DNA from: Callorhinchus milii
Taxonomy: Eukaryota
DNA length: 64,000 nucleotides
Assembly: GCF_018977255.1 (NCBI RefSeq)
Contig: NW_024704743.1
Coordinates: forward strand, 3,412,001 to 3,476,000
Direction: 5' to 3'
The position numbers were made by a program, and so were the translations under genes. The notes beneath the pieces were generated by a model that had not been told where the DNA came from, made no database searches, and was given only the letters and a program-made list of their open reading frames with translations. Positions 24,241-64,000 of the stretch are shown here, piece by piece (position 1 is the stretch's first letter; every line of letters starts with the position of its first letter).

Positions 24241-24844
24241 CGGGATACCCCCCACTTGACGCACCGGTGTCTGCTGTGACCCGGTGAGGCAGTGCAATGA
24301 CCCACCCGCTCGCTGACCGGCCCCGGCGGCCCCCGCGGCCCCGGCCAACCAAGGCCGAGCTGGCAGGGTCCGGCCTCTTAAAGGGACAGGCGTTCCATAG
24401 CCAGCGACAGGGGACCCGGGTTCAGTTCCCGGGGGGACAGACGGGCGGGCGGGCGGCGGGGGGGGGGGGGGGCGCGAAAAAAACCCGGTCCAGTTCCTTT
24501 ACTCCGCTCACGCGCCTCTGTCTACCCCTTTCGAGGCGCCTCGAGGACGTGACGAGGCGCTGCTGTGTCGAACGAGAAGTCCCGGGGATCCGGGAAAGGC
24601 TCATAATAATAATAATATAATAATAATAATAATAATAATAATCCTCGCATTGGCGGTAGCGCTTTGAAATTCAAGACGATGCCCCCCACCAACCCCCCAC
24701 CCCCGAGAAGGTCTCGGACCCGAAACCCTCTCTCTCTCTCTCTCTCGCTCTCCATCGACGCCGCCCGACCCTCCGAGCGGTCGTCCGGGTGAGAAGTCCG
24801 TGCGTGTTTTTAAACCCGAAAGACCGGGGGGGGGGCGCGCGGGG

Positions 24845-38597: not shown

Positions 38598-38821
38598 GCC
38601 GGGGAGGGGGGGACGAGCTGTAGGACCCCCTCCCTCCTCGCTTCCCCCGGCACGCGTCTCCGGGCGAGCAGTGTGGTTGGGGCACGATGGTGGGGAAAAG
38701 AAATGTGTGCGTATCGGGTTCTATAGAGTTGGAAGCACATGGGGTGAACGGAGGATAGAAACATAGGGAACAGCCCCACGCTGGAGCTCGCTCCACTCCA
38801 TTCCACTCCACGGTGTGCAGC

Positions 38822-38827
38822 AATAAA
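38822..38827 (+). terminator. Candidate polyadenylation signal of FBXL6
   Basis: AATAAA about 225 nt after the stop codon. Confidence 0.5.
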
Positions 38828-39344
38828 GTGGTTATCCAACTGTTCCTGCTGTGCCTCAGCCTCCTGCCTGCCGCAACCTCCCCCTCCTCCCCCACTGACC
38901 CCCCCCCCCCCCTTCTCCCCTGCCCTCTCCACCACCCTTCCTTCCTTCCTTCCTCCCTCCCCTCTACCCCACCTTCATCCCCCCCTCCCCCGCCCTCCAC
39001 AGCTCAGTGGGGGAACATGTGGGGAAAGTGTGTCTCAGGTGTGTGTTTTGTAGAGTACAGGCAATTGCTTTTTTTTTAAAATGCTGGTCTGTGCTGGTGT
39101 CCATCAGCCTGCGTTGTCCTGGTTTGAGCAGAGCTGATGTATAATGTACATATTACATTATGGATTTGTGTGTAGCTGTTAATGTGGGATTATAATCAAG
39201 AATTAGAGACTTGATTTGGGGCAGTGTTTTTTTTTTCTGTTTGACCTGGTGATCCAAGGGATTTAACTAAAGAAAGACTTTTATATTCTGAAGTTTGAAG
39301 GCATTTTTCTTTCAGGTTAGCCAAGTGTGACACACACAGAAACT

Positions 39345-39600
39345 CATCACTGTGATCAGCCCGGTGTCTGACACACCAAGGAAATCCGTCACAGTGATCA
39401 GCCGGGTGGCTGAAACATGGAAACCCATCACCACGATCAGCCGGGTGTTTGACACACATGGAAATCCGTCACCGTGATCACCCGGGTGTCTGACACTCGT
39501 GGACACCCAGCACCGTGATCACCCGGGTGTCTGACACTCGTGGACACCCAGCACCATGATCAGCCGGGTATCTTAACACATGGAAACCCATCATCACGTT
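39345..39600. repeat. Minisatellite of about 40 bp, tgatcagccgggtgtctgacac.., about 6 copies
   Basis: Read directly. Confidence 0.85.
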
Positions 39601-42600
39601 TATGAGTGTGAAGCAGACAGTTTGACATATTCCATCTATACGTGGAGATTACATGTGTATAGCGCCTTTCACGTCGGGAGGACGTCCCAAGGCACTGGAC
39701 AGTCGGATTTGGACCCGAGCTGGGTGTTGGGATCAGAAGGCATGCAGGCAGAGAGGGTAGGGGGAGGGTGACCGAAGAAGAGGAGGGTCTTGAGATGGGC
39801 CCTGACGCAGGCGAGGGAGGGAGGGAGGGAGCGAGGGGAAGGGATGAATTTCAAAGGGTAGGGCAGAGTGTGTGTAGAGAACAGGGTCCTGTCTGGCACA
39901 ACCCCCGAGTCTCACACCCCCCCCAACCTTCCTGCAGTCAATCTGAGCCTTCAAGCCTTTCTGTTGCATATTAGAATTTATTTACATGTGTGTGTGCATA
40001 TATATATATATCTATTATATATATTACATGTATAAAAATAGTGGTTATGGAGGAATGTTCTGGGCCTGATGGTGAGAAGATTTGGCACTCACTTCAGTGT
40101 TGCCTTTTTGTGGGGAGGGAACGATGAAAGTTCTAAGGAACTGAAGCTTTCTACTCTAATCCCATACTTTTCCCAACATGTCTGAATTACTATTTTATTT
40201 TTAGGATTGCTCAATCAATATAATGACACATTCCCGGTGAGGGGTTGTGCCATCATTTGCCCAGAAACCTTTTCCGTGCCTGCTCTGTGGGCGGGCAGTG
40301 AAGCTGCTGTTCTTTCTTTCTCACTGGTGACCCACTGGCTTCTCACCTGGCCTCCCCCAGAGCCACTGGCACCCAACACATGTAACTGCACTCACCACTT
40401 GAGGAGCGAGGAATTCTCAGGACCAGAGCGCGGCTGAAGTCTAGAGCGGGCTCGCCGATGGAATCCTCACTCTCTGTTCGAGACAATTCTTGAACTGCCA
40501 AACACATTACACAGTCACAGCAGAGGAAGAGGCCATGCACAGCAAGAAGTAAGTCACCCCTCCCCTGATCTGGATCTCCAGATGCCAGGAGGAGAATAGT
40601 CACTATATAGTCATTTGACATCTAACCATAACAACAACAATAATAATCCTTGCATCTCATATAGGGCATTATCACGTCTTCGAGAGGTCTCAAAGTGCTT
40701 CACAGAATATACTCTAAAGTGAATTGACTGGATATTTTTGTGGGCGAAATGCGCACAGCAATGTCTCAGAGGTGAAGTTACAATTTTGTAAGTGAAAAGC
40801 CAAACTGAATTTTACAATTTTCCGATAATTGCAAAGTTTAAGCCAAAGAAACGTTTTAAGAAAAAAAACAGCATGTTGTGTTGTTTAGTCCGAAGGCCAT
40901 GGTGATATTCTGAATGTGAGGTTGTTAAGGTACTGTATGACCAGCCGCAGGCCGGGATAGACCACAACAACAACTTGCATTTATATAGGGCCTACAGGGT
41001 ACAGGGTAGCACCCCAGAGTGCTTGACAGTGGCGCAGTCTAACAATGAATCAGGGTGAGAAGGAGGGGAAAGGTGACCTTAATCACAATTGAAAAGGCAG
41101 CATTTGAAAGTGGGGAGAGAGACGGAGGGATTGAGCGAGAGAGTTCTAGAATTTCAGGGTCTAGTGGCTGAAGGCACAGCCCACCGATGGTGGAGCGGAG
41201 GACACGAGGGACGAACAGGAGGCCGGAGCAAGCCAACAGTAATAGATTGGGAAGTAAGCAGATCGGAGAGGTAGGGAGGTGCCAGAGCATGAAGAGATTT
41301 GAAGCACAGGTATGAGCCCTCACTAGCTGGAGATAGATACCCTCACTAGGTGGTGGCTACTCCCTGCGAACTTCTGGGTGAGCAGCATAACTCAGCATGA
41401 AATGCATGAGAGCATTGCCACCATCTTCCTGCCCACTTTTCTCCAATAACCTTCCTGCTTCCTGCCGTGCTTGGTTTTAAGTTACCTAAGCAGAAGTTCA
41501 AGCTTGCTCCAAGGAAGCTTTTAGTACTACTTTAAAGGCCCCCTGCTTTCGCCTAAAAGCTCTCCCCACTTTTGACAGGCACCGTTTCAAGGATGAATGG
41601 CTGTAGGCTCAGCTTCAGTTTCCTTACTACCTTAGCGCCTTGGCTACAATCAATAATTATGGTAGAGAGCGCCAATTGGGGAGCGAGCACCAGCACGGAC
41701 ACGATGGGGAGAGAGAGCAGGGAATGGGAATTAAGAGTAGAGAGCTCCAGTGGGGGAGCGAGCACCAGCACAGACACGGTGGCGAGAGAGCAGGGAATGG
41801 TATTAAAGTAGAAAGCTTCGGTGGGGGAGAGGACACCAGCACACACACGAAGGGGAAAGAGCAGAGGTTTAGAGTTCAGTGCTCCAGTGGGAGAGGAAGT
41901 AACAGCACAGGCCATATGGACTGAATTGCCTTTTTGCTGTTATCTCTGTGACCATCATTGTAAAGCAACGATGATCATATAACTGAGCAACCCCGATAAT
42001 AAATTGTAAAGACAGGTGACAGGTACCAACCAGGAAGTGAATCTTCGCTGATTTGACATGAATTGCTCGCTTCAGTCTGTTCTTCATCAGTTTCCATCAC
42101 CTCCTCCTCTGGTGGCTTGCCTGAGCTGTGAGCATTTGCCAGAGAGTCTCAGATTGTGGGCAGCCTTCCCATGGTGTCAACATCAAGCTTTGTGACACAG
42201 AAGAAAGCCAATGATGCAAGCAGACTTGTCCTGCAGTCACAGGGCTGCTCTGCTTCATTCAGTCAAAACAGATTATTGCGGGGACGGACCTTTACACGAA
42301 AAAGTGTAAAGAGCAACTCTTGAGCAGCTTTCCACGATCATGGACATCAAAGAAAACCATTCAGCCCGTGTGTCTGTGCCGCCGCTCTCCCACTGGAGCT
42401 CTCTACTCTAATCCCATTCCCTGCTCTCTCCCCATCGTGTCTGTGCTGGTGCTCGCTCTCCATTGGAGCTCTCTACTCTAATCCCATTCCCTGCTCTCTC
42501 CCCATCGTGTCTGTGCTGGTGCTCGCTCTCCATTGGAGCTCTCTACTCTAATCCCATTCCCATTCTCTCTCCCCATCTCTCCTGGAGCTCAGATGTTGAT

Positions 42601-43449
42601 TGTCCAATCCAGTGAATTTATTCTGTTGCTCCTGTGTGTAAAGAATTAAGTGATATTTTTATAGAGCCTTCTCTTGTCGCAATATCTCAAAGACTGCTAT
42701 GGACAGCGCTCAGAAAGCACAGCGCAAAGGAAACCCATGGTCAGTGCTGCAACCAAGGCTTCCTGTTCATTTCACCCCATCTTCTTGTTACTGATAAAAT
42801 CCAGTCTGATCCTTTTCACTCCGATCTTTAACATATTGTGGGTGAGATTGATCACACAGTATTGACCAGGATTCTCAAACTCCATGGGGGGTTATTTTGT
42901 GTGATTTTAAAGTGAAAGTTCTTTTACAAATATTGTTCAATCAATGTATTTTGGGCTGCCGAGAGCAAACCTACTGAGAAGCACTCAACCAACAGACAGT
43001 CAGGCATTCCACTCCTGTTTTCGGGGGGGGGGGGGGGGGGGGGCACGGCTCGCTCTGGCTTAACGTCAGATCTCAACCAGGGGCAGGGGGCTGGGCTGTG
43101 CTGAGTGACCGATCTCAGCCGGGGGTCGGGTGGGAGGTGTGTGGGATGCGAGATTGTGCAACATTTTCAAATATCCGTATGAATATGATTCCAAAGAAAC
43201 CAATTGCAAATGGACATGAGGTGGCGCCATTATTCACAGAATGGTGATACTGTGCTGTGATGTGAAGTGGAGTCTGAATTATCAACTTCTCCTTCTATAT
43301 TTGTCATCCTCACTCATTCCCCACATAGGGAGAAGATTGTAGATAAACTGAGGGTAGACTGAGAGGGATGGACCGGGGATAAACTGAGGATAGGGACTGA
43401 TTGGGGATAGCCTGAGAAGATAGATGGGGGGATAGAGGAGGGGACAGAC

Positions 43450-45834: not shown

Positions 45835-46520
45835 GGGGGTGATGGGGGGGGGATGGTGGGGGGGAGGGTGGGGGGGGGGATGGTGGGGGGGGATGGGGGG
45901 GATGGTGGGGGGGTATGGTGGGGGATGGGGGGTATGGTGGGGGTATGGTGGGGGGATGGGGGGGTATGGTGGGGGATGAGGGGGTATGGTGGGGGATGGG
46001 GGGGTATGGTGGGGGGGATGGGGGTGTATGGTGGGGAATGGGGGTATGGTGGGGGTATGGGGGGGATGGTGGGGGGTAGGGGGTGGGGATGGGGGGTATG
46101 GTGGGGGGGATGGGGGGTGGGGGGGATGGTATGTGGGGGGGATGGGGATGGTGGGGTGGATGGTGGGGGGGGATGGGAATGGGGTATGGGGTGGGGGGTA
46201 TGGGGGGAGGGATGGTGGGGGGGGGGTATGGGGGGGGTGGGGATGGTGGGGGGTGTATGGGGGGGGGTGGGATGGTGGGGGGAGGTGGGGGTGGGTTGGG
46301 GGGGGGTATGGGGTNNNNNNNNNNNNNNNNNNNNNNNNNACCCCTCGCTGTGTGTGTATATATACCCCCCTCGCTGTGTGTGTATATATACCCCCCTCGC
46401 TGTGTGTGTATATATACCCCCCTCGCTGTGTGTGTATATATACCCCCCTCGCTGTGTGTGTATATATACCCCCCTCGCTGTGTGTGTATATATACCCCCC
46501 TCACTGTGTGTATATATACA
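45835..46520. repeat. G-rich (ggggatggt) array, assembly gap (Ns, 46315-46339) and 27-bp tandem repeat
   Basis: Read directly; 27-mer cccccctcgctgtgtgtgtatatata in about 6 copies. Confidence 0.9.
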
Positions 46521-47850: not shown

Positions 47851-50800
47851 ATGACCCTACGTGAGTCGCCTTTCTCTAACCCCTGTGCTCGGGGGCTGCA
47901 CTGTGTGGCCTGGGCCCTGATCTTCCCCTGTTTCTGGAGCCTGGACTGCACGGTGGCTGTCTGCAAGCCCACCAGCTACGAGAAGGACCAACAGGAGGAA
48001 GAGTGCTGTCTTCGGCCGGTCAAGCTTTCTCTCTCCTTCCTGCTGCACCTGCTCCTCATGATTGCTTTCACCCCATTGGCCTTGTTGGGTTTCCTGCTCT
48101 GGGCTCCTCTGCAGAACGCTCGCCGGCCTTTCACCTACTCACAAGCCAGGACGAAGACAGGGGGGACCCAGCAGCAGGAGACCTGGACGGGGAGCGCCGG
48201 TGGCAAAGGTTTTGGCTTTGTCACTGCCAACCTGTGCCTCCTGCCTGAGTCGCTGGCCCGCTTCAACAACCTGGGCCACACCAAGAAGAGGGCCGAGCAA
48301 ATAGCCAGCCGCGTGCTGCAGACCAGCCAGAGGCCCAGGCTGCGGGTGGAGGTGGAGTCGCCCACCAGCCTGGCTGCCAGTGTGGGGAGTGGGAGCAGGA
48401 GCAGCCTGGGGCCCTACCCCGGCCCCACCCTCAGCCTCCCCCCCGGCCTGCGCCACATGGACAGCTCGGAGAGCAGCGAAGCTAGCTCCCCGGGCCCCCT
48501 CCCCCCGCCAGACGCCCCGCTGACCGCGAGCCAGCCCGGGGCGGCTCTGGCACCGCAGTCGGCGGGCTCCCTCCCCCCGCCAGGGGCCCTGCTGACCCCG
48601 AGCCAGCCCGGCGCGGCCCCAGCGCGTCGAACGGCCTGCACCGAGCAGCCTGATCCCCGGGACCTACCCTTGGGGGAGATCACGGCCCTCTTCCCGCCGG
48701 ACGTGGCGTTCCTCTGCTTCCAGGAAGTGTTCGACAAGCGTGCGGCGGGCTTGCTGCGGCGGCACTTGGAGCCGTGTTTCCCGCACACGCTGTCAGACGT
48801 GGGCGTCTACGCCTTCCAGGGTGGCTGCAGCTTCAAGTTCCTGAACAGTGGGATGTTCGTGGCCAGCCGCTACCCCGTGCTGCAGGCCAACTACACCTGC
48901 TTCCCCTCGGCCCGCGGGGAGGATGCGCTGGCCGCCAAGGGACTACTGTGTGTCAAGGTGAGTCCAGCAGCCGCTCGCACTCACTACACACTTCTTCTGC
49001 TGTACAAGGCAACGCCGTAAGCTGGACTGGGTTAGTTTGGGACAAGCCGGGTGTCTTTGCTGTCTCCCTCACCCCCCCCCCCGACCCGTATCTCCTCGTC
49101 TGGTTGCTCTACAGTAACCCCATGATACGCCGCCTGTTTCAGGTGCTGGTCGGCCGGTCTGACAGAGGCCAGAGGATCGTAGGCTATTTCAGCTGCACTC
49201 ACCTTCACGCCACGGCAGGTAGGCAGGCCGTCAGAGGGGGAGGTGTGGAAGAGGAGACTGTGGGGGAGGGCGATGGGGGGACGGGGAGGTGTGTGGTGTG
49301 GAGGGGCTGTGTTGGGTAGAGGGCTAGAGGGAGGGGGATGTGTGGAAGAGCGGGCTGCGTTGGGGAGGGGGCTGCGTTCGGGAGGGAGTGGGAGTTGTGG
49401 GGTGGGGGTTGCTGTGAGGTAAGAGTGATCTCCCCACCCACAGAGGACTCTGCAGTTCGACAGCAACAGCTGGACGAGGTGGTGGACTGTGTGCAACTGT
49501 TCCTGAGCAGTTCGCGGGGGCCTGAGGAGAAGGTGGTGTTTGACGTTATCTGCGGCGATCTTAATTTCGACAACTGCTCCCAGGGTGCGTCTCCCTCTCG
49601 CTGGACCTCCGCGCACCGGTGTCTCCCTCTCGCTGGGCCTCCAGACAGGTCACCCACGTCTCCCTCACGCTGGGTCCCCGCACACACGTGTCTTGCATGC
49701 ATGTCTCTCTTGCTGAGTGCCTGCACAAGTGTCTTGCTCCTGCTGGGTGAGTGAGTGCACACGAGGAGTGATGTGTGTGTGTGTGTGTATATATATGTGT
49801 GTGTGTCTGTGGCCTGCGTGACTGACTGGTATCTCTCTTCACAGATGACCACCTTGAGCAGCACCACCGGCTGTTTAACATGTACAAAGATCCGTGCCGG
49901 GCCAGGCCAGGCCAAGACAAATCCTGGGTTGTAGGTTGGTACTTGCCCCCAAGCTGCCGGCTCTCACCTTCCCGACTCCTGCCAGCAGGGCCAGGAGCCT
50001 GAGCTGCACGGGATAGAGGCCTGAGGCCATTAGGAAGCCCGTATGTTTGTCAGGCAATAAGGTGTGCCGTTTACATAGGGACCTTCACATGGGATAGCAT
50101 CTCCGACACTCAGTGGGGGTACCATAGAATCATAGAATATTACAGCACAAAAGAGGCCATTGTGGAGTCCTGTAGCTCAGTGGTTAGAGCACTCGCCTCG
50201 CAAGCGAGAGACCTGGGTTCGATTGTCAGCAGGGCAAAATGTTCCTTAGGCAAGTTTCCTTACTCCACGCGCCTCTGTTTACCTAGCAGTAAATAGGAGC
50301 CCGGTTGTTAGTCGATTGGCGGATCGCTTTTCCAGGGGTAATAATTCCTTCTAAAGAAAATTGGTCACTTAAATCCACGACTGTTTGTGGCACACCGCTG
50401 TACGAAATTGGCTGCCGTATTTCGCCCACAAAACACAGTCAATTCACTTTACCGTATATTCTGTGAAGTGCTTTGAGACGTCTCGGAAGACTTGATAAGG
50501 CGCTGTATCAAATGCAAGGATTATTATTGTTGTTATATTCGGCCCATCGTGCCCGTTCCGGTTCTTTGAAAGAGCTCCCCCATCAGTCCCACTCCCAGCT
50601 CTTACCCCATAGTCCTGCAATTTTTTTCATTTTTGTCGGGCATGAATTTCTCATTGAAGCAGAGTTGCGATGTGCAGTGTGTAATATCTCTCGTCTGCTT
50701 CCCCAGGGACTCTGCTGGAACAAGCCAGCATGTACGATGAGCCTGTGAACACTCCAGAAAACCTGCAGCGGTGAGTGAGCACCTGGGGCCAGATCTCAGG

Positions 50801-51933
50801 CTGGCGTCTGTCCCACGCGGAAACCCAGCACCACGTCCAAACCACAGTGAGACCTCCATGTCTTTCACTGACGCGTGGCAATTCCTGCGTCTGGAATGGA
50901 ACCCGCACTCTTCCTGGAGGGACACATCCTGCTTGCCTAATCCTGGAAAGTATTTGGTGCGCATTGGCAAGAGCCAAGGCTTGGGGACCCCAGAGTGTGC
51001 GTTGGGGTAACCGATGGGAGTCTAACCAGCTAAAACTGCATAGCTTGTCATTGATATTGCTGTCTGGCCAAGCTTTCCTGCTGCTTGTCCAGCTTGGACC
51101 ACCCTACCCGTTAGGGCTTTGGCTTGCAGGGTTAACAGGAGCTGAGTGGATGACTCCCTCCCCCAGTGACTGGTCTGCCCTTCCAGGACCTGCCAAGGAG
51201 GCTGGCTGTGCTGCCATCAGCAGTGTCCTGGAACACTGCAGACTCATTACCAAACACGTCACCTTGCAGGCAGTTCACCTTGCAGATAGACGTTTACCTT
51301 TCCACCCCCTCCCCACACACACAACACGCACCTGAGGAGTTCCCAGTAGACCCTCTCTCCCCCCCCCCCCCCCCGCCCAGGACCCCAGGAATGGTATGTA
51401 ATGTGAAGCTTGAGACACTGTGTGGGTTGCAGGACCCTGGAGAACGAGGAGACGAGGAGAAAGTACCTGGCATTGCCGATCACTCCGGGATTCTCGGATC
51501 ACCTGGAGCTGGGAGCAGCAGGGAACGGCCGCAGGATCGATTACTTACTGTATCGGGAAGAGACAGTCGACAGCGATGTGACCACGGTGAGCGCTGCCCT
51601 TCTCCCGCTGACCCACACACACACACTGATCTCCTCTTCCATAATAATACTTGAATTTGTACAGCGCCTTAGCAAGTCAGGAGAACAGCCAGCGCTAATA
51701 TTACAAGTGCGTAATAATAATTTGATTCCCAGGCGGGGCAAAATCTTAGGTAAGTTTCCTTACTCCACTTAGCCTGGCTTGAGACTCGGCCTCCTGCGGC
51801 CATGATTAACATATACCTCTGTTCCTGACAGGAGGTAGAGGAGTTCAGCTTCATCACCCAGCTGGCTGGACTGACCGACCATCTTCCCGTCGGGATGAGG
51901 CTCTATGTTTCCATTGAAAAAGGGGAAAGCTGA
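47851..51933 (+). CDS. SMPD5: Neutral sphingomyelinase SMPD5 (MA-nSMase, SMPD3 family), 577 aa, 7 coding exons
   Basis: Exons 47851-48957, 49143-49218, 49444-49584, 49845-49934, 50707-50770, 51433-51586, 51832-51933; 1734 nt in frame. N-terminus MTLRESPFSNPCARGLHCVAWALIFPCFW has two hydrophobic segments. Catalytic motifs ANLCLL, FQEVFD, THLHA, GDLNFDN, RRIDY, LTDH. Upstream acceptor at 47748 implies a non-coding first exon. Confidence 0.92.
50162..50530 (+). mobile_element. tRNA-derived SINE nested in a CR1 3' end
   Basis: Interrupts catagaatcatagaat..gaggccatt / cggcccatcgtgcc, a minus-strand CR1 tail, in SMPD5 intron 4. Confidence 0.8.
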
Positions 51934-53815
51934 TGTGGTCAGGGGAGCGAGCACCAGCACAGACACGATGGGGAGAGAGCAGGGGGACGGGATTAGAGAA
52001 GAGAGCTCCAGTGGGATAGCGAACACTTTTTTTTTGGTCAGCCACGCGTCTGACATATGCGGAAACCCATCATCATTTTTAAGAGTATCCAAATCAAGCT
52101 GAGATTTCCATGCATCCCACCTACACTTGGAAATCCCAAAGATTGAGTGTTGGAATGGAATGTGCTCTCTCTTCCTGGAGGAATGCATCCTGATTCCCTA
52201 ATTCCGGAGAGTATTAGGTGAAGGTCAGCCAAGTCTTGGGGACCCCAGAGTGTGCGTTGCAGTAACTGCTGGAGTCTAACCAGCTAAAACTGCTTAACGT
52301 GCGATTGATATTGCTGTCTGGCAAACGTTCACGCCTCTTGTATAACTAGGACCACCCTACCCATTAGGGCTTTGGATTGCAGGGTTAACAGGAGCTGAGT
52401 GGGATGACTCCCTGCCCCCAGTGACTGGTCTGCCCTTCCAGGTTCTGCCGATGAGCCAGGCCGGGCTGTGCTGTCATCAGCAGTGCCCTGGAATACTGCA
52501 GACCCGCCTGGCTCAGGAACCGGACTACTGATACGCCACAGATTCTGACATTCCGTAGCCAAGCATGTTACCTTGAGCTCCAAGGAGACCCAAGGAGACC
52601 CGCTTACCTCTCTCCCCAAGGAGGAAAGAATGAGCACCAACACAGACATGATGGTGAGAGAGCTGGAAATGGGTTTAGAGTAAAGAGCTCCAGTGGGGGA
52701 AGCAAACACCAGCACAGACATGATGGGGAGAGAGCAGAAAATGGGTTTAGAGTAGAGAGCTCCAGTGGGGAGAGAGCACCAGCACAGTCACGATGGGGAG
52801 AGAGCAGGGAATGGGATCCAGTGGAAACTCCGATTGGCTGAGCATTCCAATTCTCCTGGTCCTGAGAATTTCTTGCACCACAAGTGGTGAGTGCAGTTTC
52901 ATGTGTTGGGTGTGGGTGGCTCTGGGGGAGGAGAGGTGAGACGTGCCAGATGCACTCTCTCACCATTGGGAAAGAAAGTCCATATTAGTGAATAGCAGGA
53001 TCACTGCCCACAAAGCGGGCATGGCAAAGGTTTCTGAGCAAATTCTATACTGAGGGACAGTCAGACCCGGGGTCGGTGCCCAGCGCTGATATTCTGTGTT
53101 AATTACAGACCTGGGGAACTATACAGCTGCCCTGACTACAGATTTGCCAGAAGTGGAGAACTATGCACATGTGGAAGATGAAATGGCAGAAGAATCAGAA
53201 CAAGCGAGTGTAAGGGGTGAGTATGAGAGTGAGGTGTCGACAGCGATATAGAGTTCGGTTATAAAGCAGGAGAGAAGGTGGTGGAGCCAGGCTGGTAAAC
53301 TGCGTGCATGGCCAGCACCCCACCACCATGAATGGTCTCATCCAGAGTGATTACTGAGATGGCTCTTCCATAAATTAGGTCCCCCAAGACCAGGGTATAT
53401 TTCAAAGTTTATTTACCACATTGCCGTGAGCGCCAAGCTTCAGATCACCCAGTAAACTGCAGCTGAAGACTTGCCTTTATCAGACTCCGCATGTCCCTGT
53501 ATATCGAACTTGTTTCATCCTCCTTTTTGGGGTATGAGGGAAGCGGGATCTCCTTGGACCTGAACTGGCTCCAATGTGTCCTGCTTGGCAACGGAATGTT
53601 GGAACCAAGCCCACCTCTTTGGCGGACTCCAGTTCGATTCCTGAGCCAGGCGGGTCCACAGTATTTCAGGGCATTGCTGATGACTGCACAGCCCAGCCTG
53701 GCTCGTCGGCAATACTCGGAATGGCAGACCAGTCACTGCGTCAGGGAATCCTCCCACTCAACTCCTGGTAACCCCACAAGCCAAAGCCCTAACGGCTAGG
53801 ATGGTCCTAGCTGGG
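50860..53815. repeat. Unclassified local repeat: copies at about 50860-51265 (+), 52115-52610 (+), 53535-53815 (-)
   Basis: Shared ttagggctttgg..gggttaacaggagctgagtgg..cagtgactggtctgcc..catcagcagtg.cctgga. Confidence 0.8.
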
Positions 53816-56800
53816 CAAGCAACTGGAATGCTTTAGAGAAAATCGTAGTTATCACGACTTTTTTGGTCACCCCATAACAATCGAGTTGGCGTTTTATAAT
53901 GATATATCTAATTTATTACAGATTACCGTTCTCTCTGGATGCGTTTGTGAGTCCCAGATTATTGTGATGTTTCCTTTGGATGTCACTTTTGCTGATTGAA
54001 AAAGCTGTTTTTTACATTAATATCAAAGTTATTACAAATTGTCCAGTGAATAAATATATATATATACATATATATATAGCTACATTGTTATGTTGATTCA
54101 GGTCCTCAGCTGGACATGATGGCAACATGTGGTTTGCTCTTTCTGTGCTTGATGGCATAGTCATCATTTTCGATCAATGTTTTTCTTCAAAATCCTATTT
54201 TCATAAATACAGCTTGATCTTGTGCTGATATCATGAGAGCTTCTGTTTCAGCTCTCGGATCTCCAATGGTCAACCAGCCAGCTGTGTTATTATTATATAT
54301 TATATTATATTATTTTGCACACAAAATATACAGTCAATTCTCTTTACAGTATATCGAGTGAATCGCTTTGAGACGTCTCAAAGACACGCTAAGGTGCTAT
54401 ATCAAATGTGAGGATTATTATTATTTGTTTATTGTGTAGTAAGATGTTATTCTTTTGCAGAATTCCAGCAGGAGATGGATGAGGTTGAACAACAGCCTTT
54501 AGGTGAACATATGTTTTTACCGAATCCAGCCATGAGAAGTTCCCAAAGTGGTGAGTCCTGGAGAAGTGCAAGTGGCACCAGAGAGGCTCATTGAGGTTAT
54601 TAATTTTGCCTACACTGTACAGTATACCCAGCAATGGTTTTGAGACATCCTCCTGATATGAAAGGTGCTGTATCAGATCAAAAGATTATAATAATCTTTG
54701 CATTTGATATAGCACATTATCACGTCTTTGAGACATCTCAAAGACATGCTAAGGTGCTATATCAAATGTGAGGATTATTATTATTTGTTTATTGTGTAGT
54801 AAGATGTTATTCTTTTGCAGAATTCCAGCAGGAGATGGATGAGGTTGAACAACAGCCTTTAGGTGAACATATGTTTTTACCGAATCCAGCCATGAGAAGT
54901 TCCCAAAGTGGTGAGTCCTGGAAAGTGCAAGTGGCCCCAGAGAGGCTCATTGGGGTTATTAATTTTTCCTACACTGTACAATATACCGAGCAAATGGTTT
55001 TGAGACATCCTCCTGATATGAAAGGTGCTGTATCAGATCAAAGGATTATAATAATCTTTGCATTTGATATAGCACATTATCACCTCTTTGAGACGTCTCA
55101 AAGACATGCTAAGGTGCTATATCAAATGTGAGGATTATTATTATTTGTTTATTGTGTAGTAAGATGTTATTCTTTTACAGAATTCCAGCAGGAGATGGAT
55201 GAGGTTGAACAACAGCCTTTAGGTGAACATATGTTTTTACCGAATCCAGCCATAAGACGTTCCCAAAGTGGTGAGTCCTGGAGAAGTGCAAGTGGCACCA
55301 GAGAGGCTCATTGGGGTTATTAATTTTGCCTACACTGTACAGTATACCCAGCAATGGTTTTGAGACGTCCTCCAGGTGCTGTATCAGATCAAAAGATTAT
55401 AATAGTCTTTGCATTTGATATAGCACATTATCACGTCTTTGAGACATCTCAAAGCGCTTCACAGAATATACTGCAAAGAGCAGTGGCTGTATATTTTGTG
55501 GGCGAAACGCAGCAGCCAATTGCGCACAGTGGCGTCCCACAAACAGTCGTGGATTGAATGACCAAGCTATTTTTTTAAAAAATATATTTTTTTGAGGGAT
55601 TATTGCCCCGGAAAAACAATTGGCCAATAGACTAACAACCGGGTTCCTACTTACTGCTTGGCAAACAGAGGCTTGTGGAGTAAGGAAACTTGCCCAACAT
55701 TTTGCTTGTGAGGCCAATGCTCAAACCACTAAGCTACAGGACTCCACTTATTATTCTTATTCTTATTACTGTTGTTTATTTGCAGTGATGACAGCTAACA
55801 TCAGTCACGAGCCACTGGATGAGGATGCAGATGAAGAAGGTAATTTAGATACAAGCTGAACCCAACCCACAGAGTGAGTAGGTTTACTTTCTTTAAAAAA
55901 ACATCTCTTTTTGGTATGCACTCTTTTCATAAAAAATAAAAGAACAAAGATCTGACCAGCTGGCTCCAGAGACTGGAGTCTCCGACAGTCTCTCTTCAAC
56001 GACACACCCTGGATCAGGTATCGTTGGACTAAGGTCACCTCCTGCTGCCCTTCTCCCTGCTCGGGGTCAAGGCCCGGCCTTTGTCCAGATTTATCCGGTG
56101 TGACGGGCTCTGTATAAATACAAGTTGTTGTTGAAAGGAAAGCTCTTTAGATGAGTGAGTTTTTGACAGTCATTACTGTCAAGTGTAGTGACTGTTTTAT
56201 GCCTTTTAAAAAAAAAGGCAGCAGATAATTTTCACACCACAAAATCCCACACATGGCAAATGAACCGATTAATCTGTTAGCCATAACCCCAGGAAAAACT
56301 CCCTTTTTTCTAAGAGCATCGTGGAGTCATGGAATCCACTTGATAGGTCACTGACTGGACCTCGGTCTAATCTGAAGGATAGTTTGTGAAGAGAGAGAGG
56401 AATTGTTCGACGTGGTGAGAGGCAGGACAGGGCTTTGTTTGCTACCCAACAAAAGGCATTTCACCTCTTCACCTCAGCAAATATCACTCTTCAAGCGAGT
56501 TAATAACTCTCAGCCTCACAGACAGGGGCTTTGTGTCTAAGCTTTACCTTCCGTGCTTCTGTTGTCTTACAGGATTCCAGGAGGGTTCACGGGAGCTTCA
56601 AGATGTATGTCTGGGGCAACATTTGTTTCTACCCAATTCAAGCATACCATCAAGTCCAACAGGCACCGAACCCCAGGGTGGTGAGTCCTGTAGTGTAGCA
56701 CCAGGAAGGCTCTCAGAGCCCATTCCTCTCCTGTCTTATTGGTCAGGGTGTGATGGGCAATGTGGTAGGAGGATAGAAGTGGTGAGGAAAGAAATCACTG

Positions 56801-59800
56801 TGAGGAACAGTGACGTGCAGGGTCAATGCCCAGCACTGATAATAATAATACTTTACAGTGTATCCTTTGAAGCGCTTTGGGATGTCCTCCTAATATGAAA
56901 GGCGCTGGATCCAATAATAATCATTGCATTTGATATAACGCCATATCACGTCTTTGAGACGTCTCAAAACACTTCACAGAATACACTGTAAAGTAAATTG
57001 ACTGTATATTTTGTGGGCGAAACGCGGCAGCCAATTGCACGTAGCAGAGTCCCACAAACAGCCGTGGATTGAGTGACTAAATTATTAAATAACATTCTGA
57101 TATTCTATACTGCGGGACAGTGATATGCGGGGCCAGTGCCCAGCACTGATATTCTGTGTTAATTGCAGACCTAGCGAGGTTCACATACCCCGTGAATCAT
57201 GATTCACTGGAAAGCGAGTCCATTGAAGATGAAGAAATATTGGGAGGAGCCCCCACATGCGGTGAGTGAGCATCTAAGCGCTCTGAGACGCTATCCTGCG
57301 TACAGGGCGCTATATAAATGCAAGTTATTGTTGTTGTTGTTCCTGTTACACTGCATCTCTCCCTTTCGCCCGGGGGCTGGTGTGTGAAGCGAAGGGCTAA
57401 TGATATGAAGGCAGGAGAATACTGATGCATAGGAACAGAGTTAAATGTGACAATAACAATACTCCTTACATTGCGTGTGCCTGTCTGGTGCAGTGGTAGC
57501 ACTCTCTCTCTCTTTCTCTCCCTCTCTCTCACCTCTGAGTCAGAAGGTTGTGGGTTTGAGACCCACGTCGGGACTTGGAAACATATAGTTTAAGCTGATG
57601 CTCAAATGCAACGCTGTGGTGGGGGGGGGTGTTGTATGTCGGAGGTGCTGTCCTTCAGATGAGACTTTTTACTGAGATCCCGTCTACCTGTTCAGGTGGA
57701 CGTTAAAGATCCCGCGGCGCTATTTGAAAAGAGGAGGGAGTTTCTCTCTCCTGGTGTCCTGGCCAACAATCCTCCAAAATAAAAAAAATTGATCATAATA
57801 ATAATGATTATATAGAGATACACAGGTGGCCGCACAAGGAAACAATCATTTCCTATATGATGGCATTCTGCTCTGATAGAAACTCTCAGTCTCACAGTCC
57901 GGTGGTTTTCTGTCTTATCCTTGGTGATTCTGTTCTTTAAACGCTACGAGATGCTGCCGCATGTGAATGGTGCTATAAATGCAAGTTGTTTGTTTGTTCT
58001 CTTACCAGCAATCCAGCAAGAGGCATGTGAGCAGGAGGCAGAAGGGTTTCCAATGAGTCCCCTGGCAGTCTCTAGCCCAGTAAACCCTGAAACGTGTCCC
58101 CAGTTTGGTGAGTCCTGGAGAAGTGAGCGTAGCTGCGGCAGGCCCTGGGGTGCTGTTGGGCATGAGGTGGTGGATCAGGTGCTGTGAGCAGCTAGAGATG
58201 GGCAGAATGTCACTGTGAGGTGACATTTTACAGTGCCTTCCATGTCGGGGGCATCTCAGAGCTTCACAGAATGGCTGGGGGTGTGGGAGGTAACTGAGGC
58301 AGGAAGTGGGATGAGGGGAAAGGCAATAAAATAGGAAGGTCTTTAAAATGGGGAGGGAGGAGGGACTTTGGGAGGGAGGGGACTAGGCGGAGGGACTTTG
58401 GGAGGGAGGGGACGAGGCGGAGGGAAGCGCAGAGCGAGGGAGGCGGAGTGACTCCGGGGAGGCAGGGGGAAGAGACGGAGGGACACTGTGGAGACGGGGG
58501 TGAGGTGGAGGGGTTCCGGAAAGTAAGTGGGTGAAGCAGATGGACTCTGGGAGAGAGGGAGGGGGGAAGAGAGGCGGAGGGACTCTGCGATAGAGTTCCA
58601 AAGAGTGGTGGCAGAATGATGGGGCGGGTGGGGCAGGATCAGGAAGCAGGCTCGGGATCACTGAGCAGAGGCAGCTGGGGTTGCAGGGGATCGCGGAGGG
58701 AGGATGGGGCAAGGCTGTGGAGGGAATTCAATGCGAGAGCAAGGATCTGCAAGTCAATCCAAGGTTGTGGCTATCAACTGATATTGTGTTTTGAATTACA
58801 GGCTGGCTGAAATACACACACCCTGAGCAGCGCGTTTTACCAGGTGGAAACATATATAAAGATGACCAAATAATGAGGGGAGCCCCAGGATGTTGTGAGC
58901 GAACTTTCTGTTACTTTTCGTCTGCTGAGATTGGTGTGTGAGATGGTGGGTAGGTCAGCAGCAGGGTGGTGGGAGTCAGGATTGGCTGGTCTCAGTCGTG
59001 GTGAGTTGACTGAAGTTAATAGGTTAACAAGATATCTGGTGTGTAGACAGAGGATGGTGTCAGCATTACATACAGCATCTTGGGATGTCCTCCTGACATG
59101 AAAGGCATTATACAAATGTAATTTGTTGTTGCATTACATGTGAGACAACAAACCACACCAGTAATGGTTTCAATCAATAATAATAATAATAGTAATCCTT
59201 GAATTTGATATAGCGCCTTATCATGTCTTCGAGACGCCTCAAAGCGCTTCACAGAATATATGGTAAAGTGGATTGGCTGTGTATTTTGTGGGTGAAATGA
59301 GTTCTTTACTAAAATATAAACAAAAGTGCATAACAAAATCTCAGTTGAAGTACAGTCAAGTAGAGTAACGACAAATTGATATTATGATGACTTAATAAAG
59401 TCGGAAGTAACGCAGAGAGTAGGTATGATCAGTTACCTTTTCTGGGAGGTTTGGCACTAAGTCTATCTTTCCTCCACGCTCTTCTTCACCAAACGTAGCT
59501 AAACTTCCAACTATTACACCACAAAGTTAGTCCATGTGAACCTCACAGGCAAAAGCGGAGTTCAATGCTTATTTTGCCCAATCACAGTTCACAGCTGAAT
59601 TGTCTTATCGTATTTTGGAACCATTCCATCCAATCTCCTTTCCATACACAGGGTATGCCCATGTGTCATGCCCTAACCCTAAAGGAATTTGGGGTTCATT
59701 TATGTTCTAACAGATTGGAGGGTGAGAGGTTTACCTCGACACTGAATTGTCTTATTTTTACACCCGAAGTAGTAAAATCCTTTCAGTATCTTGTTGTAGC

Positions 59801-62800
59801 CAATACTGCTGATACCTGCCTTTGTAACTGGGAACACTCAGCAGGTCAGGCAACCTTTATGGAGAGAGGAAAGTGAGACCATCGTTTCAGGTCGGTGATC
59901 TTTCGTCAAAAGACACTAAGTAGGTTAGGCAGCATCTATGGAGAGAGGAAAGTAGGTTAATGTTTCAGATGGATAACCTTTCATGGAATCATAAAATTAT
60001 ACAGCACAGAAGGCCATTTGGCCCATCATATCTGTGCTGGCCCTTTGAAAAGAGCTATCCAAATCAATCCCACTCCCCCGCGCTCCCCCCATAACCCTGC
60101 AAACCTGTCCTCCCCAAATAATTACTTTCTTAAAAGTTATTACCGAATCGGCTTCCACCACCTTTTTAGGCAATGCATTCCAGTTCCGAACAACCTCACA
60201 GTGTGAAAAAATTTTCTTTGATGAAAGGTCATCGACCTGAAACTTTAACTCACTTTCCCAACGACTTCTGTTTTTATTGATGCTATTATCTGTTGTCCTT
60301 ATCAGCACAATCCAAATGAGGGAAGGATAACACCTATCTGTCAGATCCACCAAGACACGTTTACAACAAAGCAAGGACACAGCACCAATACATGTAGTTA
60401 ATCTCCCTTCCCACATTCCAAAACTGGTCTCACTCAGTTTTTCACATCCAGCCCCACATCAAGCAATAATTTTAACTTTCCTTACAAGAGTCAGTGTGGA
60501 AAGGCATTTTTCAGACTGTCAGAGTGTGGTGAGCGGTGTCTACAAGGCTGTGTTGGGGCTACTCTTATTTACTATAAATTATTATTGTAATAAACATCGA
60601 TGATCAAGGATTGAGGGAATAATTTTGAAATTTACCGAGACACTAAATTGGAAGCAAGTTGTAACAAGGGTCGGGAACAACTGCAGGACGACCATAGATA
60701 AACAGATAAACGAGCAGGGTGGGCAGCTCAGTGGCAGATGCAGTTGATTAATGAAAAATGTGAATTGTTATATTTTGATATTAAGAATAAAGAATGGAAA
60801 TTCACCTTGAATGATCAGATTTTGCATGGAGCAGAGGTTGACCTTAGTGCAGATACACAGGTCACTAAAGGTGGACACACAAGGAAACAAACATCCTCTT
60901 AACTCTTCATACCAGTAAATATGAGTCTCTCAATATGATGCCATTCTGCTCTGACAGTAACCCTCAGCCTCACAGTCAGGTGGTTTCCTGTGCATGCATT
61001 GCCCTCAATGCTTCTGTTCTCTTAACAGCGTACATGATGGAGACAACTAATCGCGAGAATGAGCCTTTTCTAATGGCATGTTTTTTGGAAAGTCCAATTG
61101 GAGCATCCAGCCCGGTGATCCCGGGATCAGTCCCGCAGTACGGTAAGTGTTGGCACAGTGCGAAAGGCAGGAGGCAGCCTCTGGGACCTCATTCCTCTCC
61201 TATCTTATTGGGCGAAGAAGAGGGGAGAGGGAGGATGGGCAATATGGTAGCCAGGGGATAGAAATGAGAAAAAGGAAGTTACTGATATTCTGTACTGTGG
61301 GACAGTGATGTGTGGGGTCAGGGCCCCACCACTGATATTCTGTTTCGTTATAGAAGGCACAGTTCCTCAGAGACCAGGCAGCGTGAGCTTTGAAGATGAA
61401 ATAATAGCAGGAGCTCCCAGATATGGTGAGTTTCCCGTCAGTGTCTGTCCCTCTGCCCGAGGTCCGGTGAGGGGGACAGTAACCTGAATATTCCTGTTCT
61501 CTGTTTCCAGAGTTTCTCCGGGAGGATGTGACTCAACGATCTCCAGCATCTCAATCGCCCCCGAGAAGGCCGATAGCTGCACTTGGTAAGAGCCGCCTCG
61601 ATGTTCCAATCGCCTTTCTCGTCGGTCTCCCCAGTATGAAGCTCTGAGGGGCTGGGGGGGGGGGGGGGGGGCAGAGGGTGGGGGGCAGAGGACAGCATTT
61701 ACTGTGGACAGTAACCTGAATATCTCTGTTCCCAGAGTTTCCCCAGGAGGTTCTGGCCCAACAATTTCCAGTAGCTCAGACGCCCCCAAGAAGGCAAATG
61801 GCTATACCTGGTAAGAGCTGCCTCAATGTTCCCATCACCTTCCTCGCCGGTCTCCCCAGCTCAACCGCTGATCAAATCCAATTCATTCAAAACTCCGCTA
61901 ACCACATCCTCACCTGTCCTAAATCTTTGAAAGTGGCAGGCAGGACAAGTTAAAAAAGCTATTGAAAAGCATATGGGATCCTTGGTTTTATAAATGAAGG
62001 TATTGACTATAAAAGGAAGTTATGTCGAACATTTACAAATGACTGCTTAGGCCTCAGCTGTTTTGTTGAGTTGTGTCCAATTCTGGGCACCACACTTTAG
62101 GAAGGATGTCTGGACCTTGAGAGTGTGCAGAAAATATTTACAATAATGATACCAGAGATGAGGGACTGCAATTATATGGAGAGACTAGAGAGGCTGGGAT
62201 TAATCTCCTTAGCGCAGAGATGGTTGAGGGGAGATTTGATAGAGATGTTCAAGATTATGAGGGGTTTTGATGGAGTAGATAGTGAGAAACTGTTTCCTCT
62301 GGTGGGTGGGTCAGTAACCAGAGGTCACAGATTTAAGATAATTGGCAAAAGAACCAGAGGCGAGATGAGGAGAAATTGTTTTACCCAGAATTGTCACTGT
62401 CTGGAATGCACTACCTGAAGGATGGTGGAAGCAGATTCGATAATAGCTCTCAAGAGGGAATTAGATAAGTATTTAATAAGGAAGCAGGGGAGTGGGACGA
62501 GTTGGTAGCTCTTTCAAAGAGGCAGAGGCACAGGCACAATGGGCCAAATGGTCTCCTTCTGTTCTGTAATATTCTATGATTCTTTATATTAAACTCCGCA
62601 GCCCATCATGTCAGTCCTTGCCAAAACACCGTCCTGGGTGAAGGATGCTATATAAATGCAAGTTGTTGTTGTTGCCAGGCTCCACATTACAGAACAGATC
62701 AATTTCAAGATCCTCAGACTCGCATATAAATCACTTCATGCTCTGGGGCTTCCCTACCTCTCTGACCTCCTCACACCCACTCCTCTACCCATCCCTTTCA

Positions 62801-64000
62801 CTCAGCTGGCTCTTGCCTCCTGCACGTCCCTCATGCCCTCTGCTCCACCAATGGCAGCCATGCTTTCAGCCTCTACGCCCCGAAATGCTGGAACTCTCTG
62901 CCTCAATCCCTCCACCTTGCCTTCTCCTTGCCCGGCTTCAGATTATATCTGAAGACCTGTTTCTTCGATTGTGGAAACCGTCACCTCCCACCCCTCTCCT
63001 CAGCTCCACGTCGAGTTCCACCACTGTCAAGCGCTCAGAGTTTCTAGCCTGCGTGAACGGCGCTGCAAGATGTTGTTGTTGTTGCTGCTGCTGCTGCCCT
63101 TGGACATGAGGAAATACTGTACTAAGGAATAGTGAAGAATATAATTCTCTTTGAGGTTATGATCCTGCCTCTGTCCACTCACGCCTGTTATAAACACGCT
63201 GACTGTGTTACACTGTCTGTGAGGCTGTTGCTGAGGGGAATGTTGTGTTTGCTCACAGGACCTCCTTACGAAGGTGCAGCGTTCTTTCCCACTGATTTTG
63301 TGGCGCCCACAGATTTGGAACCACCTCCAATTGGTAAGTGCTGCGGTGGGAACCTGGCGCTCAGCGACATTCCAGCCTTTGGGAACAGACACTGCTGAGA
63401 GCGGCCAGCCAGCCTGCCTCATTACACAACCTGAGGAGCAGACGAGGCTGGGATTTTTCTCACTTGGCTCCTGTTATCTGTGCAAGCCAAGGCCCTAATG
63501 GTAGTGCTCGCTGAACAAACAGCAGACAGAGTCCCAATGTTGGGATTGGGGAGCTGGTTGTGCTGCAGCAGCAATACACTGTGGCCCTGTATGGGGGAGA
63601 GCCGAGAAGAAAGAGGGGAGGTAACTGTAGTTGCGATCAAAGAGACTGGTCTTCAAGCATGATCTGAAGATGGGCAAGGAGCAGGTAAGACGCAGGAATT
63701 GAGGGGCATAGTGGCTGAAAGCATGGCCGCTGATGGTGGAGTGGAGGGCTCGAGGGACGTGCAGGAGGAAAGAGCCATAGAGAATGGAGTGGGTAGAGGT
63801 GTGGGAATGAAAAGGTTGGAGAGGTAGGGAGGTTCCAGTGCACAAAATGATTTTCAGGAGCCATTGTCTTGTGTGATGGCCACTGGTGTGTAGGTGCTGT
63901 AACTCTGGGATTCCTCTGTAGTCAGATGGTATCTTGTGTGTGTGTACAGTGTGCCCGATGCCTGAGTTCAGGAAGCCATCGCCACTTCCAGTCCAAACCG
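52811..64000 (+). CDS. Unrecognised gene of repeated symmetric phase-1 mini-exons, acidic/Pro-rich product, 3'-incomplete
   Basis: Candidate exons: 52811-52886 (ATG, tentative), 53109-53216, 54461-54550, 54821-54910, 55181-55270, 55786-55839, 56573-56680, 57169-57261, 58009-58107, 58802-58894, 61029-61142, 61354-61425, 61511-61585, 61736-61810, 63259-63333, 63950-window end (tentative). All 14 internal exons have pyrimidine-rich yag acceptors, gt(a/g)ag-type donors (one gtaatt), lengths divisible by 3 and no stop in the shared frame. Confidence 0.7.
54049..54054 (+). terminator. Candidate polyadenylation signal, possibly of SMPD5
   Basis: First AATAAA I found after the SMPD5 stop, within an AT-rich UTR-like stretch. 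Confidence 0.3.
54365..55445 (+). repeat. Three tandem 360-bp units, each carrying one 90-nt exon
   Basis: Near-identical sequence at 54421, 54781 and 55141 (360-nt period). Confidence 0.95.
57490..57790 (+). mobile_element. DeuSINE-like element (second SINE family)
   Basis: Head gtggtagcactc..ctctgagtcagaaggttgtgggtt and core ttcaggtggacgttaaagatccc..ggtgtcctggccaaca, as in the AmnSINE1/SacSINE1 Deu domain. Further copies at about 5055-5425, 6930-7235, 21361-21700, 32490-32785 (+) and 12930-13155, 16800-17220 (-). Confidence 0.7.
60480..62585 (+). mobile_element. CR1 LINE 3' fragments (about 60480-60900 and 61930-62585)
   Basis: [33 protein letters not shown] and a ttctatgattct tail. Minus-strand CR1 3' ends also at about 34350-34765 and 59985-60210. 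Confidence 0.75.

What the first reader, a model, noticed from the sequence alone, without database searches (positions are those of the whole stretch)
52811..64000. Hidden gene built from at least 14 symmetric phase-1 mini-exons encoding an unrecognised acidic/Pro-rich repeat protein
Seen: the ORF track shows no gene here, yet 14 segments of 54-114 nt each have a good acceptor and donor, a length divisible by 3 and phase 1 at both ends. They join without a stop: [36 protein letters not shown] / [30 protein letters not shown] (x3; third copy ..PAIRRSQS) / [18 protein letters not shown] / [36 protein letters not shown] / [31 protein letters not shown] / [33 protein letters not shown] / [31 protein letters not shown] / [38 protein letters not shown] / [24 protein letters not shown] / [25 protein letters not shown] / [25 protein letters not shown] / [25 protein letters not shown]. 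Known: 1-1 exons are typical of modular, often extracellular proteins and can be skipped in any combination; SCPP genes use phase 0, so this is not a canonical SCPP. Inference: a lineage-specific, fast-evolving, probably disordered protein with combinatorial splicing potential. I recognise no family.
Basis: partly seen in the sequence, partly recalled or inferred. Interest (0 to 1): 0.85.

Follow-up and report, generated by a model that had tools for sequence, protein, structure and literature searches.

The report
Orphan mini-exon gene cut by inversion
A probable cartilaginous-fish genome holds a gene of about 45 tiny interchangeable exons for a floppy repeat protein with no relative found, and a DNA inversion has cut off its front end, so it is either a gene that found a new start or one that was recently beheaded.

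Summary
All 14 exons are real (AG/GT, phase 1-1, open). The array runs 26 kb past the window: 44 open exons, about 1,300 residues. A splice-site scan gave 35 phase 1-1 donors in 38 kb, against 0-2 in three controls. Duplicated exons show 0 frameshifting indels where 10 are expected (p 0.0002), but dN/dS is about 1: frame was selected, most residues were not. No homologue or domain was found. New here: the start at 52811 is not an original first exon. It is half an exon whose inverted 79% copy lies at 40166-40494, and one 72-bp repeat unit is split between the two ends (63 of 66 bases when rejoined). An inversion flipped SMPD5 in front of the array and severed its 5' end. Most likely this is a disordered intracellular phospho-scaffold, NBPF-like in build but not in family, that gained a new start. 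If the inversion is young it is a freshly beheaded gene. Expression is not shown.

The parts
40140..40165 (-). right half (26 nt) of a split 72-bp dispersed repeat unit; left inversion breakpoint
   Evidence: 24 of 26 bases match an intact unit, 0 of 2000 shuffles reach the score; continues the unit that stops at 52817
40166..40494 (-). inverted copy of 52818-53122: an open 99-nt phase 1-1 exon (40494-40396, weak acceptor, good donor), the intron, and a decayed start of the next exon
   Evidence: 212 of 267 aligned bases identical, longest identical run 18
47851..51933 (+). SMPD5-like neutral sphingomyelinase gene, 7 coding exons, 578 codons, intact; inside the inverted segment; phase-1 donors at 49218, 49584 and 49934
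   Evidence: model by coordinates; best hit a fish SMPD5, then SMPD3 proteins
52025..52630 (.). high-copy dispersed repeat; with the 72-bp repeats it fills the space between the SMPD5 stop and the half exon
   Evidence: 12,397 first-look candidates in the genome, 40 scored at 79-85% identity besides self
52632..52817 (+). 72-bp repeat array ending in the left half of the split unit; supplies the ATG at 52811; right inversion breakpoint
52811..52886 (+). half exon: repeat-derived ATG in frame with the 3' part of an older 1-1 exon, phase-1 donor; candidate new first coding exon
53109..53216 (+). exon 1 (class B-like, 108 nt)
54461..54550 (+). exon 2 (class A, 90 nt; first of three 360-bp tandem units, 54366-55454)
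54821..54910 (+). exon 3 (class A)
55181..55270 (+). exon 4 (class A)
55786..55839 (+). exon 5 (short class B-like, 54 nt)
56573..56680 (+). exon 6 (class A)
57169..57261 (+). exon 7 (class B)
58009..58107 (+). exon 8 (class A)
58802..58894 (+). exon 9 (class B)
61029..61142 (+). exon 10 (class A)
61354..61425 (+). exon 11 (class B)
61511..61585 (+). exon 12 (class C; S/T-P followed by a basic patch)
61736..61810 (+). exon 13 (class C)
63259..63333 (+). exon 14 (class D)
63950..64000 (+). start of exon 15 (class E; ends 30 nt beyond the window). 29 further open 1-1 exons follow up to G000:C2:3502280; probable 3' end near C2:3504300-3504600

Best explanation
A real, lineage-restricted protein-coding exon array that grew by serial tandem duplication of phase 1-1 exons: single exons, A-B pairs, then three blocks of 7-10 exons (class order BAAABABABABCCDEF AABCGGCDEF u AABCGCDEF ABA uuuuu, u = unique). 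It encodes about 1,300 residues of mostly disordered chain. Selection kept frame, splice sites and a few short motifs, not most residues (shown). An inversion of about 12.6 kb (40.2-52.8 kb) flipped SMPD5 in front of the array, left the array's old 5' part on the opposite strand, and separated SMPD5 from a likely poly(A) signal (inversion strongly indicated; the poly(A) step inferred). The array probably stayed coding afterwards, starting at the repeat-derived ATG at 52811 or carried by SMPD5 read-through (inferred). The product most likely works inside the cell as a multisite substrate and docking scaffold for proline-directed kinases: repeated S/T-P sites and basic patches let copy number set valence and charge (inferred from motifs alone).
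For: Exon reality. Frame selection: in 13 duplicated blocks, exons have 1 indel (6 nt) in 1,323 aligned bases and introns 35 indels (29 frameshifting) in 3,784; expected 10.1 in exons, observed 0, p 1.7e-4; substitutions 5.2% against 6.9%, p 0.037. Inversion: inverted copy plus a split repeat unit, 63 of 66 when rejoined. Old age: the inverted copies are 79% alike, while most large block duplicates that kept their frames are 84-97% alike. The ATG at 52811 is in the same frame as the inverted exon. Intracellular reading, 28 non-redundant exons: S/T-P 26 against 15.3 shuffled (p 0.002), S/T-P-x-K/R 4 against 1.1 (p 0.02), dibasic 13 against 4.8 (p 0.001). In class A a five-residue hydrophobic motif lies exactly 10 residues before an S-P site in 5 of the 5 exons that have both. 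Highest 19-residue hydropathy 1.2, so no membrane segment.
Against: No transcript is shown. dN/dS is 0.97 over 24 non-independent pairs, and absence of stops alone is weak (0 seen, 2.7 expected, p 0.065). The exons were picked as open, and two dead copies exist. Introns may mutate by indel faster than exons for reasons of sequence context. The repeat halves look young (3 differences in 66; p 0.07 if the event were as old as the 79% copies). No unique sequence is left for a promoter between the SMPD5 stop and 52817. N-glycosylation sequons are also enriched (8 against 2.5, p 0.003). The class A motif fits the MAPK D-motif consensus in only 1 of 8 exons. The 3' splice path is ambiguous.
Confidence: 0.48

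Rival explanations
1. Freshly beheaded gene. The two 79% copies are old tandem duplicates, the inversion is young (perhaps polymorphic or limited to this haplotype), and the array is now a young pseudogene whose clean frames date from before the inversion.
For: Repeat halves differ from an intact unit at only 3 of 66 bases. No unique upstream sequence for a promoter. dN/dS about 1. The minus-strand exon is still open with its donor. Tandem duplication is the rule in this locus.
Against: The breakpoint would have to fall inside the short junction exon between the two duplicates, which a staggered break explains without coincidence (inference). A young severed 5' part should still show strong exons and a start; only one exon with a weak acceptor was found on the minus strand of 38.6-47.8 kb, though a 26-base N stretch at 46315-46340 could hide more. 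Longest identical run between the copies is 18 bases, a poor substrate for recent recombination (general knowledge).
Confidence: 0.3
2. The product is a secreted acidic glycoprotein or a granin-like precursor cut at basic sites, with the 52811 piece acting as a signal peptide.
For: Sequons 8 against 2.5 and dibasic sites 13 against 4.8 in shuffles. Acidic first third. A 10-residue hydrophobic stretch in the 52811 piece (mean 2.5) before a phase-1 intron, as in many secreted proteins (recalled).
Against: The sequons are not kept between paralogous exons, whereas S/T-P sites are. S-x-E sites are not enriched. The hydrophobic stretch is short, and its ATG comes from a broken repeat. R-x-K/R-R occurs once (p 0.16). 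No signal-peptide predictor was available.
Confidence: 0.12
3. The array is the tail of a membrane-anchored protein: either an SMPD5 splice form (N-terminal membrane helices, truncated enzyme, disordered tail) or, before the inversion, an adaptor whose anchor lay in the open frame 40621-40397.
For: SMPD5 has three phase-1 donors that join the first array exons without a stop. The first AATAAA after its stop codon is at 54049, inside the array; the only minus-strand poly(A) hexamer in 38700-40165 is at 39982. The minus-strand frame has a 19-residue hydropathy of 2.25.
Against: No SMPD5-array fusion was apparent among 114 longer relatives, judged by name and length; one 823-residue SMPD5 was read and is an internal duplication (8,000 candidates scored). 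The minus-strand hydrophobic stretch is what a T-rich acceptor tract spells. Tyrosine docking motifs are not enriched.
Confidence: 0.09
4. Chance or assembly artefact: amplified intronic repeats that only look like exons.
For: The youngest copies are 95-100% alike, so part of the count is copied signal.
Against: Seven exon classes plus six singletons all share phase 1-1; 35 against 0-2 in controls; frameshift avoidance; copies 79-97% alike cannot be assembly doubles; neither breakpoint lies at the N stretch.
Confidence: 0.01

Closest known systems
NBPF genes / Olduvai (DUF1220) domains
   Same: Lineage-specific expansion of exon doublets and of higher-order blocks, encoding disordered protein (PMC9313022 and bioRxiv 10.1101/2021.07.06.450945; passages seen).
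   Different: No Pfam hit on single exons. Olduvai doublets are one small exon (most often 52 nt) and one longer than about 140 nt; here all 44 are 51-120 nt and fall into seven classes. Different genomic neighbourhood (SLC52A, FBXL6, SMPD5).
Disordered proteins built from successive symmetric exons, as a general class (Schad et al. 2013, PMC3632108; abstract and passages)
   Same: Consecutive same-phase exons, internal tandem duplication, disorder, repeated short motifs.
   Different: Scale (44 in a row), no folded domain found, no homologue found, and a 5' end cut by an inversion.
SCPP and Sparc-L N-terminal acidic repeats (PMC9122587; passages)
   Same: Acidic and Pro/Gln-rich composition; small exons.
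   Different: Phase 1 rather than mostly phase 0; S-x-E density 0.8 per 100 residues against 1.7-5.1 in that paper; no sparc-L among the genes recognised here; no conserved signal peptide.
Titin PEVK, calpastatin and SP100/SP140 small-exon regions (recalled, not read here)
   Same: Runs of small exons for disordered segments (recalled).
   Different: No Pfam hit for any such family on 29 peptides and no flanking domain in 85 plus-strand frames at the 3' end.

Membership tests
SCPP | Mostly phase-0 introns | tested here: not met
   44 of 44 listed exons are phase 1-1; feature from PMC9122587
SCPP | Abundant S-x-E (Fam20C) sites | tested here: not met
   7 in 839 residues against 7.6 in shuffles
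SCPP | SPARC-type signal peptide and sparc-L synteny | tested here: not met
   Neighbours are SLC52A, an F-box/LRR gene, SMPD5 and interferon-like genes; the ATG piece is repeat-derived
NBPF/Olduvai | Pfam Olduvai match | tested here: inconclusive
   No hit on single exons at E up to 5; a two-exon unit was not scanned
NBPF/Olduvai | Small exon plus large (over about 140 nt) exon doublet | tested here: not met
   Exons 51-120 nt; feature from PMC9313022
NBPF/Olduvai | Tandem higher-order blocks of disordered repeats (works-like feature) | tested here: met
Transmembrane adaptor (LAT/NTAL type; features recalled) | N-terminal membrane helix with nearby cysteines | tested here: inconclusive
   Absent from the plus-strand array; a hydrophobic, Cys-rich open frame at 40621-40397 may be only an acceptor tract
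Transmembrane adaptor (LAT/NTAL type; features recalled) | Enriched tyrosine docking motifs | tested here: not met
   Y-x-N 1 against 0.7, Y-x-x-hydrophobic 4 against 5.2
MAPK docking-motif substrate | Basic residue then alternating hydrophobic residues (consensus of PMC4670726) | tested here: not met
   1 of 8 motif-bearing exons fits
Expressed protein-coding gene | Spliced transcript across the predicted junctions | tested here: inconclusive
   No RNA holder was served for it; see Tried and rejected
Expressed protein-coding gene | Frame conserved in orthologues of related species | not testable with these tools
   No related genome is held

The most novel reading that the evidence does not exclude
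An inversion beheaded a 40-kb repeat gene and re-headed it in the same event. SMPD5, cut off from its poly(A) signal, now reads into the array and splices from a phase-1 donor, or a broken repeat supplies promoter and ATG. The result is a new membrane-tethered or free phospho-scaffold with up to 44 frame-neutral cassette exons that kept expanding after the break.
Probability: 0.2. Interest if true: 0.8.

Novelty: new variant of a known kind. Interest (0 to 1): 0.55.

Why it matters
It is a gene that ORF scans and homology searches both miss: 44 exons, none over 120 nt, and no relative found. It is a clean case of selection on frame rather than on sequence. The inversion leaves both breakpoints readable to the base, so gene death and gene re-birth can be told apart with a few PCRs and long reads. 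The inversion also predicts a changed 3' end for SMPD5. If the array was re-headed, it shows how an NBPF-like repeat protein can arise and survive outside mammals.

Tried and rejected
Expression: no RNA holder listed for window 61000-61830 (4 holders of unknown kind from one study, 8 guessed RNA runs with next to no words). Contigs of 4 of those 8 runs laid on L007 gave cover at dispersed repeats, depth under 0.5 in the bins lying on or beside the unique exons (1003-1336, 4009-4342, 6013-6346, 7015-7348), and no GT-AG joint among the 15 joints shown (269 not shown). Neither result is evidence on expression.

Homology: exon 10 with flanks, no candidate. Class A alignment, 0 of 2,965 candidates at E up to 10; the same library does hold vertebrate proteins, including a chimaera SMPD3. 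Class A profile against 1.84 billion representatives gave 19 hits. I examined 12: 10 are RCC1-type repeat proteins matched on a short Ser-Pro word and 2 are unrelated tandem repeats; 7 were not examined. Pfam: 1 hit below cut-off among 29 peptides; 1 hit at E 0.047 among 85 plus-strand frames of L007. The 84 frames of L008 listed were not scanned. ESM Atlas: no usable hit for 2 exons. Own genome: 2 exon proteins matched only themselves; exon DNA matched only within the locus apart from repeats.

Minus-strand unique stretch 41915-43430 as the lost N-terminus: no Pfam hit under E 0.06. A PDB match to a herpesvirus thymidine kinase at E 1.9 is at chance level, since an unrelated frame scored E 0.19; rejected. 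An acidic exon-like piece at 42120-42031 is only weakly like class A (z 4.5); left open.

Candidates left out of the 44 for weak acceptors or position in repeats: 52621, 68868, 70083, 74743, 91966, and the frameshifted remnant near 76223.

Literature: searches for SMPD5 synteny and for a described gene of this kind found nothing on it (listings only). PMC6640115 and PMC13176653 were searched by term and gave no synteny; their supplements were not read and may list the interferon locus.
Full report
Setting. The window is G000:C2:3412001-3476000 in a 991.5-Mb genome. Earlier AI notes on the same genome call it elephant shark (not checked here). Coordinates above 64000 continue the window into loci L005-L014. 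Upstream lie SLC52A riboflavin-transporter genes (minus strand; Pfam E 5e-96), an F-box/LRR gene that I read as FBXL6 from its sequence and position (name from recalled human 8q24.3 order) and an intact SMPD5-like gene at 47851-51933. Downstream lie interferon-like genes on the minus strand (Pfam E 0.006, below cut-off).

Observation. All 14 of 14 exons are present, open, AG/GT-flanked and phase 1-1. The array continues: 44 of 45 hand-listed candidates are open 1-1 exons of 51-120 nt between 53109 and 90280, together 3,900 nt and 1,299 residues with no stop. A fixed-threshold scan found 35 distinct 1-1 donors in 38 kb, against 1, 0 and 2 in three control stretches of the same length. Beyond about 92,600 exon density on + falls to background and an AATAAA lies at 92569. 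The last exons (90968, 91988, 92296) can be joined in more than one way, so the C-terminus is unresolved. No Pfam domain was found in the 85 plus-strand frames of that region.

Architecture. DNA similarity sorts the exons into six clusters plus singletons; with one subgroup split off by eye this gives seven classes, in the order BAAABABABABCCDEF AABCGGCDEF u AABCGCDEF ABA uuuuu. This records three layers of duplication: a 360-bp unit three times (95% alike), A-B pairs, and three blocks of 7-10 exons spaced 7-17 kb apart, mostly 84-97% alike. Two dead exon copies lie in introns, near 76260 and 80280.

Selection. In 13 duplicated blocks, exons had 69 substitutions and 1 in-frame indel in 1,323 aligned bases; introns had 260 substitutions and 35 indels, 29 of them frameshifting, in 3,784. 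Expected frameshifts in exons 10.1, observed 0 (p 1.7e-4). Stops: 0 against 2.7 expected (p 0.065). dN/dS over 24 non-independent pairs is 0.97. So the frame was under selection during the block duplications, while most residues drifted. Caveats: exons were chosen as open, the two dead copies are outside this count, and intron sequence may be more indel-prone.

Product. Pro 13%, Ser 9.5%, Glu 8%, Trp 0.3%. 62% of 51-residue windows have FoldIndex below 0; the first 300 residues are strongly acidic, the rest alternate in charge. In 28 non-redundant exons S/T-P sites (26 against 15.3), S/T-P-x-K/R (4 against 1.1) and dibasic pairs (13 against 4.8) are enriched and S-x-E is not (7 against 7.6). 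Sequons are also enriched (8 against 2.5) (11 motifs tested, no correction applied). The sequons are not kept between paralogous exons. The S-P site is: in class A a five-residue hydrophobic motif lies 10 residues before it in 5 of 5 exons that have both, although the spacer differs. That motif fits the MAPK D-motif consensus (PMC4670726, passages) in only 1 of 8 exons, so its partner is unknown. I take an intracellular multisite phospho-scaffold as most likely; this step rests on motifs alone.

Homology. None found (details under Tried and rejected). The searches used single exons or one exon class of 37-43 residues, so a diverged shark orthologue could be missed. The locus looks single-copy in this genome.

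The 5' end. A genome search with this piece found an inverted copy at 40255-40426. The alignment extends over 52818-53122 against 40462-40166, 212 of 267 bases identical. The minus copy has a whole open 99-nt exon but a decayed next exon; the plus copy has half an exon but an intact next exon. Everything between the SMPD5 stop and 52817 is repeat. One unit of the 72-bp repeat stops at 52817, and its missing continuation starts at 40165 on the minus strand; the two share a 7-base word, and rejoined they match an intact unit at 63 of 66 bases (0 of 2,000 shuffles reach the score of the minus half). This is the signature of an inversion of 40.2-52.8 kb. Before it, SMPD5 faced FBXL6 and the array had its 5' part in front of it. 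The only minus-strand poly(A) hexamer in 38700-40165 is at 39982, a candidate for SMPD5's old site; today the first AATAAA after the SMPD5 stop is at 54049, inside the array. Neither breakpoint is at the N stretch (46315-46340), so a scaffolding flip does not explain it.

Age decides the verdict. If a staggered break made the two copies, 79% identity dates the inversion before the 84-97% block duplications; the array then stayed coding without its old head. That needs the repeat-derived ATG (in frame with the old exon) or splicing from one of three SMPD5 phase-1 donors. If the copies are older tandem duplicates, the inversion can be young, as the well-kept repeat halves suggest (p 0.07 under the old model), and the array is freshly beheaded. 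I put these at about 0.5-0.6 against 0.3.

Comparison. It works like NBPF/Olduvai genes (PMC9313022 and bioRxiv 10.1101/2021.07.06.450945; passages) and fits the general pattern of disordered proteins built from symmetric exons (PMC3632108; abstract and passages). It is not filed under either NBPF or SCPP (PMC9122587; passages): defining features were tested and not met. I found no paper on this locus (listings only; the library lacks most subscription journals). Earlier AI notes describe similar hidden arrays in three other genomes (unchecked), so the kind is not rare; the inversion is what sets this one apart.

Verdict. Real feature, new variant of a known kind, no relative found, expression unproven. 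Interest 0.55; the re-heading reading has probability about 0.2 and would merit 0.8.

Noticed in passing
window 2981-4285, 15.7-17.8 kb, 18936-19898 (minus strand): At least two SLC52A riboflavin-transporter genes in tandem; one carries a Glu/Arg/Pro-rich insertion in its long exon.
   Followed up: partly
L008:9717-9858 and L010 near 430-570, with L009:9493-9834 (minus strand): Two near-identical signal-peptide-like first exons and an exon with a weak Pfam interferon match (E 0.006): a small intron-containing interferon-like cluster next to the array.
   Followed up: partly
G000:C2:3541500-3551800 (L011-L012, minus strand): Exon candidates that look like an NME8/NME9-type thioredoxin and nucleoside-diphosphate-kinase gene (by eye; name recalled, not tested).
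   Followed up: no
window 41915-42388 (minus strand): Unique 119-codon frame with four stops, all TGA, ending in an acidic stretch and a weak phase-1 donor; possibly a decayed 5' part of the array gene.
   Followed up: partly
window 51934-54054: SMPD5's stop codon is followed directly by repeats, and no canonical poly(A) signal occurs for 2.1 kb; its 3' UTR may overlap the first array exons.
   Followed up: partly
window 46315-46340: A 26-base N stretch between low-complexity repeats inside the inverted segment; it could hide 5' exons of SMPD5 or of the array gene.
   Followed up: no
window 22948-24244 and 26126-26984: Long GC-rich minisatellites between the SLC52A and FBXL6-like genes give the longest open frames of the window; they are repeats, not genes.
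   Followed up: no
protein P0032: The 823-residue fish SMPD5 record is long because of an internal duplication, probably an assembly or annotation error.
   Followed up: yes
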